Of a DNA stretch of 64,000 bases, positions 1-59,900 are shown piece by piece; positions within the stretch are counted from its first letter, which is position 1, and every line of letters begins with the position of its first letter. The stretch spans positions 1-64,000 of the forward strand of contig NW_026936238.1 in NCBI RefSeq assembly GCF_032062105.1. Reading direction: 5' to 3'. The stretch is from Saccostrea cucullata (Eukaryota). Position numbers: made by a program.

Positions 1-3000
1 CTGTATTAGTGTTGGGTGATGTTACCTGTATTAGTGTTGATGATGTTACCTGTATAAGTGTGATGATATTACCTGAATAAGTGTTGATGATGTTACCTGT
101 ATTAGTGTTGGGCGATGTTACCTGTATTAGTGTTGGGTGATGTTACCTGTATTAGTGTTGGATGATATTACCTGTATAAGTGTTGGATGGTATTACCTGT
201 ATTAGTGTTGGATGATGTTACCTGTATTAGTGTTGGGTGATGTTACCTGTATTAGTGTTGGGTGATGTTACCTGTATTAGTGTTGGGTGTTGTTACCTGT
301 ATTAGTGTTGGATGATATTACCTGTATTAGTGTTGATGATGTTACCTGTATAAGTGTTGATGATATTACCTGAATAAGTGTTGGATGATATTACCTGTAT
401 TAGTGTTAGGCGATGTTACCTGTATTAGTGTTGGATGATATTACATGTATTAGTGTTGGGTGTTGTTACCTGTATTAGTGTTGGGTGATATTACCTGTAT
501 TAGTGTTGATGTTATGAGTGTTGGAATACCTGTATTAGTGTTGGATGATGTTACCTGTATTAGTGTTGGATGATATTACCTGTATAAGTGTTGGGTGATG
601 TTACCTGTATTAGTGTTGGATGATAATACCTGTATTAGTGTTGGATGATATTACCTGTATAAGTGTTGGATGATATTACCTGTATAAGTGTTGGATGATG
701 TTACCTGTATTAGTGTTGGATGATATTATTGTTACCTTTATTAGTGTTGGATGATGTTACTTGTATTATTGTTGGATGATATTACCTGTATAAGTGTTGG
801 ATGATATTACCTGTATAAGTGATGGATGATATTACCTGTATAAGTGTTGGATGATATTACCTGTATTAGTGTTGGGTGGTCTGGCCACTCCTGTTGAAGT
901 TCTCTTACTCTGACCATCAGTCTCTGTAGTATAGGAACACACTGAATGACCTCTGACAAGTTAGGGTCACGGTAAACATCATAACCCTGGTGATGATTTC
1001 TCAGCCTGATTATCATATACAGACTTATGTCCTCTTGTAGTGTCTGACTGGCCACCAGGTGGCTTCCTAATGTCTGCCTTTCTACTTCTGACACTGTCGA
1101 GAAGAGAAAAAATGAAATTACGAATGTATGTATGTATATGTTTGACTGTATCACTTATTGAGATGAAATCTGTTCTTACTTAGGTTATCAAGTGTCTTTA
1201 TTGTTTTTTTAACATAAGATTAAACTTACAGTTCCACTGCCCTCTAAACAAAGGTGCAGCAATGCTATAGCACAACAATGAGGGCTCTGTGATATCCTTG
1301 GTCATGACCTCTGTCACATGACTTTGTTGTAGCCAATCAGAGGAGGACAGACTTGAGAACAGTAGCTGGTGGGTGTGGCTTACAGCTGCCACTTCCCTGT
1401 CAGTCACTCTCTGGGATGCGTCATCTATTTCCGGTTCCAAAGGCTCAGATAAACCAGTGTCTTCCAGAGAGTAGGGTGTCATCAAGTCTTGGAAATCCTA
1501 TCAAAAGAAAAACACATAGCAAAAATTCAGTAGGATTGAATACACATTTTACATATTTTAAGATAACAAAATCTCAAACCTTTCACATTCTGTAGACACC
1601 TATTACAATATAGTTCTGTACAATGACACGCTGATCTACATGTTGAAAATCTTATTTTCTTTCATGATTTTTTTTTTTTTGTATTTTGAAGACAAATTTC
1701 AACCTCAGTCCAGGCCACCCTGACTAACCTGCTGAAAGGAGGGAAAGTTCTGTCTGAATTCCTCCTCCTCTATCACATCATTGTCTCTGTCATCGCCGTG
1801 GAGATTTGTCTTGTATTTATATAGACCCTCATCAGCCTCTTTCTGACGTCGTATCTCCTCCTGATGTTTCCATGACAACACAAAACGATTGAAGATTTGG
1901 TGCAGAGACATCAGAATCTCTCTATTTAATTCTTTTCTCATCATGGCTGAGTTCCGCAGTAAAAACAATGCACCAAGGTAAAGTCTGAAAGAGGAAGGGA
2001 TAGAACGTAACATATTAGAACCAGCATGATATAGTTTAATTTATTATACTTTCATGTTAAATACTAAAATCTGATTGGTTTAGACGCAGGTAACAATCCG
2101 TTCGATTACCCTGAGCCTTAGCAACATACGTGACAACGGGTAACACAACGGTAATGCCACATGCGTGGAAATTATGCGCGTACGGTTCACCGTAGAATTC
2201 TCAAAACGTCAGTTGCGCGTTTGAAAGAACCGGAATTATCTTGACGTCAATAAAAGCTTGCTTGCGATAAAGCTTACTTTAAAACAACAAACGACAGACG
2301 ATACATGCTTTGCCAGTGTAGGAAACATGCTTGCGAGCCAGAAATAACGAACCTTATAACCTGATAAATGACTCGAATTCGAGTATCAAACAAACAATAA
2401 GGAGATTAGTGAACCGGTGAGTGTGAAAGCTTTCTATGCATGAGCGTAAAGACGATCGACGGTTTTTTTTCGCTGACGTCCTAAATCAATAAGACATTCA
2501 GTATAATAAAATAAATGGTGCCTGTTTTGTAGGGTAACATTTGAAATTGACACCCCTCGGAAAACCATTGTCAACCTCCGCTGACGCGTCGGTTGACAAT
2601 GGTTTTGCTTGGGGTGCCAATTTAATCTGTTACCCTCCAAAAAAGGCACCATTTATATAATATTATAGTCCTCTCCTCAACCAATGAAAATTCAACACTT
2701 TTCTATAAAGGCAGAAAACAAATAACTACACATTTACCTTGAAGTTTGCTCTGTCCCGTTCTCCTCCACCTGACCCCTACAACCAGACACCAGTCTCTCT
2801 ACTAACAGGATTTTCTGAGCTAGCTTCCAACTGCTGAATACATCTGATGAAATGAACGGGAACTTTACCAACAGATGAGCTGCTTCCCTGATGTGACCAA
2901 CTGTCTCATGGACCTTGAGAGCAAAATATATATTTATAAATTTATATTTCTGAGAAATTCACAATAACTAGGTGAAAATTGAACCCAATTTTTAATTTGA

Positions 3001-56900: not shown

Positions 56901-59900
56901 CCTCCAGCTGACCAAAAAATTAATTAAACGATTATTTTATTTTGAAATAATCTTTATCTAATTTTGAACATGAAATTATTCATCAATAGCAGAAAGTAAA
57001 TTCCAGAATTTTTAAAAACATAAATTTCTATGTTTTTCATGTGAACGTATTCAGTACTTTTTCTTACCTCCCTTTGTTTTAGCTGTAGTTTGATCTGTGT
57101 CTTAACCACTGGATCAACAGGTGACCTTGGTTTGTGGAGGAGCATGCCCAGTAGACCTACATACACCCACTGTCTTCCTACTGTTCTCATATCAGCCTCA
57201 TCATCAGAAACGGCAAGTATTCCACTCAAACACTCCCTTACTATAAATAGATCAGGCCCCATAACTCCATTCAGGAGGTTTGTTATGGTTTGGATTATTT
57301 GCTCACTGTTCGAATGAGAGGTATCTTTGTTTTGGAGGCAGTTGATGAACTCAGACACACTCTGTTTGTATTTGTCCTCTGCTTCCTTGGATTTAAACAT
57401 TGCCACAGTGGAGTGAAGTATTGATACAAACACTTGGACGATGTGCTGTCTCAAAAGTATCCTTAAAGGACAACAAATGAAATTGTATATTTTTATCATT
57501 AAGGCCACACCAATAAATTTTTTTGTTCGTCAGACCAGCGCGCTCGTATTTAAACAAAACTATACAAATAATATTAATTTAAAAACCCCACACCATGGGA
57601 ATTCTCTGTTGTTTTGTGTTCTATTTCTGCTCTATTTATCGTACTTTTAACCTACTTACTCTGCAAATCAGAAAAAATATAATTCTCTGCTCAATTTTTT
57701 TCAAACATAAAACTTTTACCTACAATAAAGTTATAATATTATTATTTTACCACTAGCCCGCTCGTACTTTCTTCATTAAATGTCCGACAAACAAGAAATT
57801 AAATTAGTGAATCTTAAAATCATTTTACTGACTTTCTCTAAATTCATGTGAATACACACAACATCAAAATTAAAACTGACCTAGTCTGAAGATTCCCTTT
57901 ACAGAGCATTGAGCCTTGAGACCAGATGTGCTGTGACAGGATCTGTAGTTTGTGTAGCCTTGATTTTAAGTCTCTCAGAGGTACATCAACAGTAAGATGT
58001 CTGTCCTGTGATGACCTTTGTGTTTCCTCAGATTTTCCACACATCAGGTGGTAGGCAGTCTTACTTAATACTGCCTTGTAAAGACTTTTTGGGCCCTAAA
58101 ACATACAGTTTATGTGATAAACAACATGAAACCAGAAGTCTCTGTCGAGACTGTAGCTCTACTGGTTTATACTTAAAACAAAGGCAGAGAAAAGAAGCAG
58201 TTGTGACTTGAGACTTCAAAACAGCAATCAGTAGAAAAACTAGAGCAAAGCTCGTTGCAAAGCAACGAGTAGGTCTTCCGTCCTGTTTGACCGGAAGTAA
58301 CTTTCATTTTTAATAAATATGTGAAACAACGCCCAAAAATGGTTTGAATCCTCTAAATCCATATCAAAAAATTCAAAAATAAGCCATTTTCTGCTACTTC
58401 CGGTTTGACCGGAAGTGACGACGACGGACGGAAAATTAATTTAAATGCTCCCAGAGACTTATATTACAAAAAAACCTGTAAAGAACGGCAAAATTATGCG
58501 TTTACCGATTACTTCCGGTTTGGTCGGAAGTGACAACGTCGGACGTATTTTGACGACTTTAATAGATCAAGCTTGACATTTTGAACAACTTTGCTTCTTT
58601 TACGTATCACAAATTCTCAATACTTTTTGAGATAGAAAGGAAAAACTTTCGGTCCCTCCTGGCCCCTTATTTCAAGGGCCAGCCCTTTTTTTGAGATGTC
58701 ATTTGAAAGATCTTCAAATTCTACACCTTTTTTGTTCTACATGCTTTAACAAAATATTTTCAGGTAAAAAGTTTTCGTATAAAAGGTGCTAAAAATTTTG
58801 AAATTCTTGATAGGACTATTTTCGGGCCATAGCGAGAGTCGGCGCTTCGTACTTCCGGTAGTTTTGATATACTTAGTGCACTTCTCCAAAGGTTGCTCTA
58901 AGCATCACTGAAAATTTCATGCTTCTGTGTTAAGTGCTTTTTAAGAAAACTGCCGGACTAAGTGACCCTCTAAAAATCACTAAATCGCAGAAATCTCCGG
59001 ACCGGAAGTGACGTCATCAAAATAAAAAAATATATATCTAGATTTTTTGGTGTTCTATCAGACCTGAAAGTTTCATGAAAATCGATCGAGCCGTTCTCGA
59101 GAAATCGTGCGCACAAAATCGGTAAGAAAAAAAAACAATAATAAAAATAGTGGAAAAGAAACCTAAGAAAAACAATAAGGTCTTCCGTTGAAGACGGAAG
59201 ATTTTAATGATCCTTATCACCCATCAAAATAAAAACAGATGCAAAAAATTATGTATCATAAGTATAAGTCACATTATCCAGCGATGGGGTACACGATGCG
59301 AAACTGATGCGTATTTTGATGAAAATGGCGTGGTTGCCGACCGGGTACCACTAGTGATCAGACGGTGACTGAGGCCATTTTGCAAATCGGTGGGGTCATC
59401 AGTAGGAAATAAATCGTAGTTAAAAATCAGCTATGTCTCCAACGATGCCTCACATTGCTCCTCATCGACAACCCATCATTAAGACGTCTTTCAAGGATTG
59501 GCCGATGTATGACCGAGCATCTTCCAATTTCTGTTCAATCTGAGGTCATCGGAGGGTTGAGTGGTGTTCAACAGATAATGGACGATCATCGGTCGATGTT
59601 CGGCCAAACGTTGGCCTGAAGTCGACCTAAGTACAAAAGATGTTCACCAATGTATGAACGATGTAATATACATCAGCGGATTATCCTGGAACATCGTTTT
59701 ATGATTAGCAATGCATCACTGAGCCTTTGTAAGTCTGGCCAGGAACCACACCATTTTCATCATAAAATGCATTGGTTGCCCATCGTATACCTATCGCTGG
59801 ATAATGTGACTGATACTTTAAGGACTACTAGCCAATGATGACCGATGTAGGGGCATCGTTAATACCACGGATTACCACTGATTACCACCGTTCTACGGCT

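What the first reader, a model, noticed from the sequence alone, without database searches (positions are those of the whole stretch)
861..58095. Tandem partial duplication of midasin with both visible copies broken
Seen: copy A has stops at 4620-4622 and 12503-12505 and an apparent phase mismatch between exons 10758-10884 and 10139-10437. Copy B has a stop at 42545-42547 and a truncated exon. The shared exons nonetheless keep their lengths, splice sites and mostly conservative or synonymous changes, while the introns have acquired different TEs. Established: MDN1/Rea1 is an essential 60S biogenesis AAA-ATPase and is normally single-copy. Inference: a third intact copy exists (a longer tandem array), the lesions are recent or haplotype-specific, or some are base errors.
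Basis: partly seen in the sequence, partly recalled or inferred. Interest (0 to 1): 0.7.

Follow-up and report, generated by a model that had tools for sequence, protein, structure and literature searches.

The report
Duplicated midasin tail, both copies damaged
A probably molluscan genome stretch carries the back half of the essential ribosome-assembly motor midasin twice in a row; selection kept both copies intact for a long time, yet each now shows a few disabling changes, so the working gene lies elsewhere or the sequence has errors.

Summary
The duplication is real. On the minus strand, copy B has 45 exons (58095 to 14771). It runs from mid-linker through the D/E-rich region and MIDAS domain to the natural stop codon. 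Copy A restarts 2.2 kb further on (12550 to 861, 17 exons) and leaves the window. Nine exons (S1-S9) are shared.

All three reported stops are in frame in well-supported exons: TAA at 12503-12505, 4620-4622 and 42545-42547. The truncated exon is real (S4 of B). The reported phase mismatch is not real: a GTAAAG donor 7 nt downstream (exon ends at 10751) restores phase.

I found further lesions:
- a -1/-2 indel pair in S9 of A
- a probable +1 frameshift in D21 of B
- a G-to-E change in the MIDAS 'SDG' motif of B

The copies are old paralogues, not haplotypes: dS is 0.22 and the introns are largely unalignable. Both were under purifying selection for most of that time. dN/dS is 0.25 (95% 0.17-0.34). 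Exon lengths are kept, and 122 of 123 splice dinucleotides are intact. So copy A was not a dead-on-arrival fragment, and the lesions are young, haplotype-specific or errors.

I could not test for a third copy, read support or expression. No eukaryotic database, reads or RNA data were available.

The parts
12471..12550 (-). Copy A exon U1 (80 nt) with in-frame TAA at 12503-12505
   Evidence: AG/GT flanks; its phase fits U2. No B counterpart in the window, so this is the least certain exon.
11632..11924 (-). Copy A exon U2
   Evidence: canonical sites, open, phase 2 to 1
11319..11492 (-). Copy A exon U3
11034..11167 (-). Copy A exon U4
10751..10884 (-). Copy A exon U5. The donor is GTAAAG at 10750, not at 10757.
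   Evidence: with this donor the phase fits U6, so there is no mismatch
10139..10437 (-). Copy A exon U6
9601..9947 (-). Copy A exon U7
   Evidence: no PDB hit
9057..9209 (-). Copy A exon U8
4591..4805 (-). Copy A exon S1 with in-frame TAA at 4620-4622 (B has TCA)
4075..4468 (-). Copy A exon S2
   Evidence: 92% aa identity to B
3709..3900 (-). Copy A exon S3
3324..3557 (-). Copy A exon S4, intact (234 nt)
3052..3141 (-). Copy A exon S5
2738..2913 (-). Copy A exon S6
1729..1984 (-). Copy A exon S7
1230..1497 (-). Copy A exon S8
861..1093 (-). Copy A exon S9 (233 nt; B has 236). Relative to B it lacks 1 nt and 2 nt, which puts 33 nt (about 990-1022) in another frame without creating a stop.
57881..58095 (-). 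Copy B exon S1 (open)
57068..57461 (-). Copy B exon S2
56716..56907 (-). Copy B exon S3. Its donor region is duplicated locally just downstream.
56566..56625 (-). Copy B remnant of exon S4: only the last 60 nt, with no AG acceptor
   Evidence: Skipping it would keep the frame but drop 78 codons.
55260..55349 (-). Copy B exon S5
54939..55114 (-). Copy B exon S6
54554..54809 (-). Copy B exon S7
54019..54286 (-). Copy B exon S8
53464..53699 (-). Copy B exon S9
42976..43293 (-). Copy B exons D1 (43293-43198) and D2 (43070-42976)
42697..42799 (-). Copy B exon D3
42403..42589 (-). Copy B exon D4 with in-frame TAA at 42545-42547. A weak in-frame alternative acceptor sits at 42533/42532.
40302..42190 (-). 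Copy B exons D5 42190-42084, D6 41992-41888, D7 41742-41596, D8 41427-41280, D9 41001-40952, D10 40845-40749, D11 40610-40508, D11b 40404-40302
   Evidence: all AG/GT, open, phases consistent
34624..37980 (-). Copy B exons D12 37980-37865, D12b 37674-37596, D13 37376-37185, D14 36938-36868, D15 35524-35142, D16 35052-34961, D17 34845-34624
27265..28144 (-). Copy B exons D18 28144-28007, D19 27857-27579, D20 27444-27265 (start of the D/E-rich region)
26181..26313 (-). Copy B exon D21 (133 nt): probable +1 frameshift near 26211. Every strong donor leaves 1 nt over, whereas D23 starts in phase 0.
23061..25518 (-). Copy B exons D23 25518-25402, D24 25279-25112, D25 24850-24755, D26 24245-24045, D27 23832-23614, D28 23432-23343, D29 23176-23061
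   Evidence: mutually phase-consistent and open when D23 starts in phase 0
22241..22421 (-). Copy B exon M1: MIDAS domain with DDSSSM (the DxSxS motif)
   Evidence: yeast Rea1 residues 4663-4721, E=9e-23
21497..21797 (-). Copy B exons M2 (21797-21724) and M3 (21611-21497)
21174..21386 (-). Copy B exon M4. It reads SDERG (GAG at 21282-21284) where chain 8ql1_A and yeast Rea1 read SDG.
15330..15377 (-). Copy B exon M5
14771..14908 (-). Copy B last exon M6 with stop TGA at 14771-14773
   Evidence: aligns to the C-terminal ends of midasin chains (S. pombe residues 4677-4714 of 4717)
14252..14257 (-). AATAAA, candidate poly(A) signal of copy B, 514 nt after the stop
   Evidence: motif match only
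12551..14770 (-). Junction interval between the stop of B and the first exon of A. It holds no midasin exon and no AAA exon.
13420..14083 (.). Satellite-bearing element 'sat-h': 161-bp repeats flanked by a 13-nt inverted repeat at 13467-13479 and 14067-14079
58101..60711 (.). Second copy of sat-h, interrupted by insertions. It abuts the S1 acceptor of B.

Best explanation
This is a real and fairly old head-to-tail segmental duplication of the tail-encoding half (linker, D/E-rich region, MIDAS domain) of a midasin (MDN1/Rea1) gene in an animal genome, probably a mollusc. Shown: upstream copy B runs to the natural stop codon and a candidate poly(A) signal. Downstream copy A restarts 2.2 kb later at a linker exon. 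It has no promoter-proximal or AAA exons of its own in the window. Inferred geometry: one breakpoint lay in the intron before exon U1, and the other lay about 0.5-0.7 kb beyond the stop codon. Shown: both copies evolved under purifying selection on codons, reading frame and splice sites for roughly nine tenths of the time since they split. Inferred from that: copy A was translated for a long time. Either upstream exons spliced into its U1 acceptor after read-through of B's poly(A) site, or A was part of a second complete gene. Shown: in the sequence as given, no intact reading frame can be spliced from either copy. A has two TAA codons and a frame-shifted 33-nt patch. B has lost most of exon S4 and has one TAA, a probable +1 frameshift and a G-to-E change in the MIDAS 'SDG' motif. 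Inferred: these few lesions are young and real. Both visible copies are decaying or are null alleles on this haplotype, and the essential function comes from a copy outside the window or from the other haplotype.
For: Duplication: searches give six collinear blocks. One search shows 9 of 9 S exons reciprocal by tblastn, while 0 of 8 U exons and 0 of 36 D/M exons have a second copy in the window. Gene identity and a complete 3' end: (E=9e-23), and (540 residues with 32% D+E). Exon chain: all 17 A exons and 44 of 45 B exons have AG/GT flanks and consistent phases. Age: dS 0.22. Introns show only 470 alignable nt, 12.6% substitutions and 11 gap openings, and 3 of 8 are unalignable. Selection: dN/dS 0.25, 95% interval 0.17-0.34, 0 of 2000 bootstraps at 0.5 or above, and differences by codon position 54:17:82. 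There are 2 indels in 1851 exon nt against about 43 at the intron rate (my arithmetic). Observed nonsense codons are 2 in A and 1 in B, against 19.6 and 40.8 expected if neutral throughout. Lesions. The indels are not in homopolymers, which argues against typical long-read errors.
Against: Midasin is essential and usually single-copy (established knowledge), and no intact copy is visible here. Lesions this sparse could equally be base errors or allele-specific variants. The two indels in S9 of A sum to 3 nt within 33 nt, which looks like a compensated change in a translated gene, not decay. The D21 frameshift lies in a poorly conserved acidic region, where a weak GTTTTA donor or a weak 29-nt bridging exon could rescue the frame. 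The stop in D4 and the S4 remnant could both be bypassed in frame. U1 has no counterpart to confirm that it is an exon. Whether B has its own U1-U8 exons beyond position 64000 is unknown.
Confidence: 0.5

Rival explanations
1. The duplication is real, but most lesions are base-call or polishing errors, or rare alleles of the sequenced individual. Both tails are functional, either as alternative 3' cassettes of one gene or as parts of two genes.
For: Constraint is strong on both copies. Only 3 nonsense codons occur in about 3500 codons. The nested B-box gene in B shows the same pattern: frame-preserving indels plus a single in-frame TGA. Two B lesions can be bypassed in frame.
Against: The S4 truncation with a local duplication of the S3 donor is a structural change, not a base error. 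The small indels are not in homopolymers. Three independent substitutions to TAA would need a high substitution error rate. The conserved Gly-to-Glu change in the MIDAS motif fits relaxed constraint.
Confidence: 0.2
2. Assembly misjoin between paralogues. A and B belong to two complete midasin genes, and the contig was falsely joined inside the 161-bp satellite at 13.5-14.1 kb, dropping A's promoter and AAA exons.
For: The join region holds a satellite that also occurs at 59.9-60.7 kb. This would explain how A could be under selection without visible 5' exons.
Against: The sat-h element is a compact unit bounded by the same 13-nt inverted repeat in both copies. It shows no sign of a chimeric array. 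The misjoin does not explain the lesions. It cannot be tested without reads.
Confidence: 0.12
3. Classical outcome of a partial tandem duplication: B is the working gene and A is a promoterless fragment that was dead on arrival.
For: A starts in mid-gene 2.2 kb after B's stop codon, and it carries two stops.
Against: With one neutral copy, dN/dS should be at least 0.5. The observed value is 0.25, with 0 of 2000 bootstraps reaching 0.5. A keeps 34 of 34 splice dinucleotides and all exon lengths. B itself has at least three disabling lesions.
Confidence: 0.08
4. Two haplotypes of a single-copy gene falsely placed in tandem.
For: This is a common artefact in heterozygous invertebrate assemblies (recalled).
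Against: dS is 0.22 and exon identity is 91.6%. Three of 8 introns are unalignable, and intron lengths differ up to 6.7-fold through different insertions. The copies are offset rather than co-extensive.
Confidence: 0.02

Closest known systems
Midasin / MDN1 / Rea1 (60S ribosome biogenesis AAA+ ATPase)
   Same: The MIDAS exon has the DxSxS motif (E=9e-23 to yeast Rea1 residues 4663-4721). The C-terminal exon aligns to the last residues of S. pombe and yeast midasin. A D/E-rich stretch precedes MIDAS. The exon S2 that I modelled folds as all helices.
   Different: The tail is present twice in tandem. No AAA exons lie in the window. The linker exons show no detectable similarity to fungal structures. 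Both copies carry disabling lesions.
Partial tandem gene duplicates and duplicated pseudogenes created by segmental duplication
   Same: The arrangement is head-to-tail with one breakpoint inside the gene. The introns have diverged and carry different insertions. The coding sequences contain stops and frameshifts.
   Different: The truncated copy shows long-term purifying selection (dN/dS 0.25; splice sites and exon lengths kept). That is not expected of a promoterless fragment.
Genes with alternative 3' exon cassettes, for example Drosophila lola and mod(mdg4) (recalled from memory, not checked here)
   Same: A common 5' part could splice to one of two downstream tails. The U1 acceptor of A is intact and in phase 0.
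   Different: Here each cassette would be dozens of exons and over 40 kb. Using A would need read-through of B's terminator. No transcript evidence exists, and both cassettes carry lesions.
Human F7 intron 7 minisatellite, whose first 37-bp unit spans the exon 7 donor (PMC1557585; abstract read)
   Same: Here, tandem arrays likewise begin inside an exon end and repeat the splice site: 25-, 61-, 42- and 68-bp arrays at donors and a 43-bp array at an acceptor.
   Different: This one gene has five such junctions, with up to 37 units. One array is at an acceptor. No splicing data are available.

Membership tests
Midasin (MDN1/Rea1) | C-terminal MIDAS (VWA-like) domain with a DxSxS metal-site motif | tested here: met
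   Exon M1 aligns to yeast Rea1 4663-4721 at E=9e-23 and reads DDSSSM. M4 and M6 also hit midasin chains. In copy B the later 'SDG' motif reads SDERG. Copy A's MIDAS exons are outside the window.
Midasin (MDN1/Rea1) | Long acidic D/E-rich region just before MIDAS | tested here: met
   Exons D18-D28 encode 540 residues with 175 D+E (32%).
Midasin (MDN1/Rea1) | Large helical linker between the AAA ring and the D/E-rich region | tested here: inconclusive
   26 B exons (S1-D17) and 17 A exons form one phase-consistent chain into the D/E and MIDAS exons. The S2 model is all-helical (pLDDT 78.5). Against that, 0 of 5 PDB sequence searches, a Foldseek search with 0 hits at E<=0.001 and the Pfam scans gave no direct match.
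Midasin (MDN1/Rea1) | N-terminal ring of six AAA+ modules | not testable with these tools
   No AAA family was found in any of the 40 ORFs/exons scanned with Pfam. The 5' half must lie beyond position 64000, if it is linked at all.
Processed or duplicated pseudogene | Neutral evolution (dN/dS near 1, decayed splice sites, many indels) since origin | tested here: not met
   dN/dS is 0.25 (0.17-0.34). 122 of 123 splice dinucleotides are intact. Shared exons have 2 indels against about 43 expected. Introns are retained, so the copies are not processed.
Haplotype (allelic) false duplication | Near-identical, co-extensive copies | tested here: not met
   Exon identity is 91.6% and dS is 0.22. The introns are largely unalignable and the copies are offset.

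The most novel reading that the evidence does not exclude
One midasin AAA motor with two interchangeable tails. The upstream AAA exons would splice either into cassette B or, after read-through, into cassette A. Each cassette encodes its own linker, D/E-rich region and MIDAS domain. Both would have been kept by selection, perhaps specialised for the two known MIDAS clients (the Ytm1/WDR12 and Rsa4/NLE1 UBL domains). The lesions seen here would then be allele-specific or errors.
Probability: 0.1. Interest if true: 0.75.

Novelty: new member of a known kind. Interest (0 to 1): 0.45.

Why it matters
Midasin is an essential gene that is normally single-copy. A lineage that kept two tail halves under selection for a long time would mean one of two things. 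Either there are two working midasin paralogues, or there is an unusually large alternative-cassette gene. Either would bear on how the MIDAS tail recognises its two pre-60S clients. If the copies are instead decaying, the locus is a useful dated example of a partial duplicate that did not die at birth. It is also a warning for annotation of heterozygous, repeat-rich mollusc assemblies. As it stands, the finding is an ordinary kind of event, a segmental duplication with lesions, with one unexpected property: long-term constraint on the truncated copy.

Tried and rejected
- **Direct identification of linker exons failed.** PDB phmmer found no midasin hit for the S2 ORF, S7 ORF, S9, U7 or D18.
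- **Pfam found no midasin family.** Pfam on 40 ORFs/exons gave only B-box hits, in the two plus-strand ORFs.
- **The Atlas search on S2 gave no usable lead.** Its nearest clusters were unrelated or unnamed helical-repeat families at scores of 0.90 or below, with low recognition.
- **Folding S2 led nowhere.** AlphaFold2 on S2 followed by Foldseek against the PDB gave no match at E<=0.001.
- **A reassigned TAA codon was considered and rejected.** All 3 in-frame midasin stops are TAA. However, the nested gene in B ends in TAA and carries an in-frame TGA, while midasin B ends in TGA.
- **Rescue of D21 was examined.** Every strong donor leaves 1 nt over. Only a weak GTTTTA donor or a weak 29-nt exon (AAG acceptor, GTGAAC donor) restores the frame.
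- **The 100-bp 'h' block is not an extra exon.** In A every frame that fits U1 has a stop (read).
- **Cross-copy splicing cannot yield an intact message.** U1 and S1 of A are unavoidable for a full-length product.
- **tRNA and Rfam scans were empty**.
- **Literature searches found no report of midasin duplication in molluscs** (one search was too broad to be informative).
- **Complex prediction was not used.**

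
Full report
**What the window is.** The window has 64,000 bases, about 35% G+C and no N. It is rich in tandem arrays (32 TRF rows). I do not take it for human. The intact ORF nested at 6115-7743 sits in B-box/NHL clusters dominated by Mollusca. The two MIDAS exons that hit PDB chain 8ql1_A match it at only 29 of 59 and 32 of 44 aligned residues.

I built no spliced (joined) model and searched with none. That left the linker exons with little search power.

So I could not compare the window with other animal midasins, use an outgroup, or look for a further copy. 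Paper supplements were closed too, but no claim here depends on one.

**The duplication.** Self-comparison shows six collinear direct-repeat blocks: A 743-4815 against B 53346-58105, at 82-93% identity. I read the minus strand in three frames and then checked every boundary by coordinate.

- **Copy A** has 17 exons: U1-U8 (12550 to 9057) and S1-S9 (4805 to 861).
- **Copy B** has 45 exons: S1-S9 (58095 to 53464), D1-D29 (43293 to 23061) and M1-M6 (22421 to 14771).
- **Splice sites.** All A exons have AG and GT flanks. In B, 44 of 45 acceptors and 44 of 44 donors are canonical.
- **Second copies.** Exon-by-exon tblastn inside the window found the partner for 9 of 9 S exons. It found no second copy for 0 of 8 U exons or 0 of 36 D/M exons, apart from the repeated tail of D29.

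**Identity.**
- M1 aligns to yeast Rea1 4663-4721 with E=9e-23 and carries DDSSSM.
- M4 hits chain 8ql1_A (E=8e-13) and, weakly, Rea1.
- M6 aligns to the extreme C-termini of S. pombe Mdn1 (4677-4714 of 4717, E=1.6e-7) and yeast Rea1.
- D18-D28 encode 540 residues with 32% D+E.
- The linker exons gave nothing in 5 PDB searches, in Pfam, in the Atlas or by fold search.

The linker exons are therefore assigned to midasin by the unbroken phase-consistent chain into the MIDAS exons. My recollection of other midasin sequences agrees, but that is a lead, not a test.

So B reaches the natural 3' end of the gene. An AATAAA lies at 14257. Copy A begins only 2.2 kb after B's stop codon, and nothing like an AAA exon lies between them.

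**The lesions in A.**
- TAA at 12503-12505 in U1.
- TAA at 4620-4622 in S1, where B has TCA and both copies share the downstream consensus donor.
- Two deletions relative to B in S9 (1 nt and 2 nt). They put 33 nt out of frame without creating a stop.

**The lesions in B.**
- Only the last 60 nt of the 234-nt exon S4 remain. They follow a local duplication of the S3 donor and have no AG acceptor.
- TAA at 42545-42547 in D4.
- D21 is 133 nt long, so every exon from D23 to the stop is out of frame. The acidic reading shifts by +1 near 26211, and no convincing rescue exists.
- M4 reads SDERG where both comparators read SDG.

A reassigned TAA is ruled out.

**Age and selection.**
- Over 613 shared codons there are 155 nucleotide and 68 amino-acid differences.
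- dS is 0.22, dN is 0.055 and dN/dS is 0.25 (bootstrap 0.17-0.34; 0 of 2000 at 0.5 or above).
- Differences by codon position are 54:17:82.
- Between the shared exons only 470 intron nt align, with 12.6% substitutions and 11 gap openings. Three of 8 introns do not align at all, and intron lengths differ up to 6.7-fold.
- At the intron indel rate the 1851 exon nt would carry about 43 indels; they carry 2.
- At dS/2 per site about 7 of A's 34 and about 19 of B's 89 splice dinucleotides should be lost; 0 and 1 are (my arithmetic).
- Expected nonsense hits under full neutrality are 19.6 for A and 40.8 for B, against 2 and 1 seen.

These copies are therefore old paralogues, not haplotypes. Neither was neutral for more than about a tenth of its history. 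With one neutral partner, dN/dS could not fall below about 0.5, and gene conversion does not change that bound. So the truncated copy A must have been translated for a long time.

**How it probably works.** The simplest geometry is a tandem duplication. One breakpoint lay in the intron before U1 and the other just past B's poly(A) site.

For A to be expressed there are two routes. Upstream exons, which lie right of the window, must splice into the intact phase-0 acceptor of U1 after read-through of B's terminator. Otherwise A must belong to a second full gene whose 5' half is missing from this contig.

Neither route can be tested here. With the lesions as written, no intact message can be spliced from the window. 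That leaves three readings: the two copies are young pseudogenes or null alleles and the function comes from elsewhere (my preferred reading, 0.5); the lesions are errors (0.2); or the contig is misjoined (0.12).

**An unresolved detail.** A satellite-bearing element with 161-bp repeats, bounded by a conserved 13-nt inverted repeat, lies between B's 3' end and U1 of A. It lies again immediately upstream of S1 of B.

In B the homology runs from this element straight into the last 10 nt before S1, across a short stretch similar in both source sites. Two explanations fit:
- B lost U1-U8 by a deletion of about 8.6 kb. That loss would be in frame (1614 nt).
- The element is a mobile MITE-like unit that inserted twice. 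Such units are described in bivalves (PMC3879986 and PMC7492417; search listing only).

Sequence beyond 64 kb would decide between them.

**Verdict.** The event is of a known kind. The one unexpected property is long-term constraint on a copy that looks promoterless.

Noticed in passing
1-875 and 53344-53478 (25 bp, S9 donor, both copies); 38088-40322 (61 bp, D11b donor); 28132-29702 (43 bp, D18 acceptor); 27051-27294 with 26429-26860 (42 bp, D20 donor); 22503-23116 (68 bp, D29 donor): Five exon junctions of this gene are the first unit of a tandem array. The arrays overlap the exon end by 13-56 nt and repeat the splice site up to 37 times. Of 7 short-unit array loci inside gene B, 5 do this, against about 0.7 expected by chance (my arithmetic). 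The 25-bp array is in both copies, so it predates the duplication. The human F7 intron 7 minisatellite is a known single precedent (PMC1557585, abstract).
   Followed up: partly
27051-27294 and 26429-26860: Each 42-bp unit carries CAG|GAACTGGAACAGGTAGATGAG|GTGAGT. That is a 21-nt in-frame pseudo-exon (ELEQVDE) with its own acceptor and donor, placed right after an exon of the D/E-rich region. Exonisation would add acidic heptads.
   Followed up: no
6115-7743 (+) and 61393-63054 (+): Two B-box/NHL (TRIM2/3-like) genes lie antisense within the midasin region. The A-side gene is an intact 542-codon ORF held in the Atlas among mollusc clusters. The B-side gene has one in-frame TGA at 62845-62847. 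All six indels between them are multiples of 3. dS is 0.37, dN 0.17 and dN/dS 0.46. Their flanks share no homology, and their dS exceeds the midasin value of 0.22, so they may predate the tail duplication.
   Followed up: partly
13420-14083; 58101-58238, 59210-59260, 59927-60711: A satellite-bearing element has a perfectly conserved 13-nt inverted repeat (TAGCTCTACTGGT / ACCAGTAGAGCTA) in both copies. In B it abuts the S1 acceptor. This suggests either an 8.6-kb deletion of exons U1-U8 or an independent MITE-like insertion.
   Followed up: partly
21282-21284: The conserved Gly of the MIDAS 'SDG' motif is Glu (GAG) in copy B. Chain 8ql1_A and yeast Rea1 both have Gly.
   Followed up: partly
14640-14775: The last ~65 nt of the final exon, with the start of the 3' UTR, appear again in degenerate form just downstream of the stop codon. 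This looks like a local tandem duplication (seen).
   Followed up: no
55607-55890 and 56224-56514: An inverted repeat of about 290 nt (80% identity) sits in the S4-S5 intron of B, which is 1216 nt against 182 nt in A. It is probably a foldback or MITE insertion.
   Followed up: no
42532-42589: An in-frame alternative acceptor (TGCAG|ACC) lies 57 nt into exon D4. Using it would skip the TAA codon and 19 acidic codons, but its upstream tract is purine-rich.
   Followed up: no
18680-19390, 19998-21021, 33745-34275, 47545-48774, 63224-64000: Further intronic or flanking arrays have 146-, 162-, 77-, 147- and 146-bp units and do not touch exons. Arrays of this size are described as dispersed, transposon-borne repeats in bivalves (PMC7492417, PMC8268682; search listing only).
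   Followed up: no
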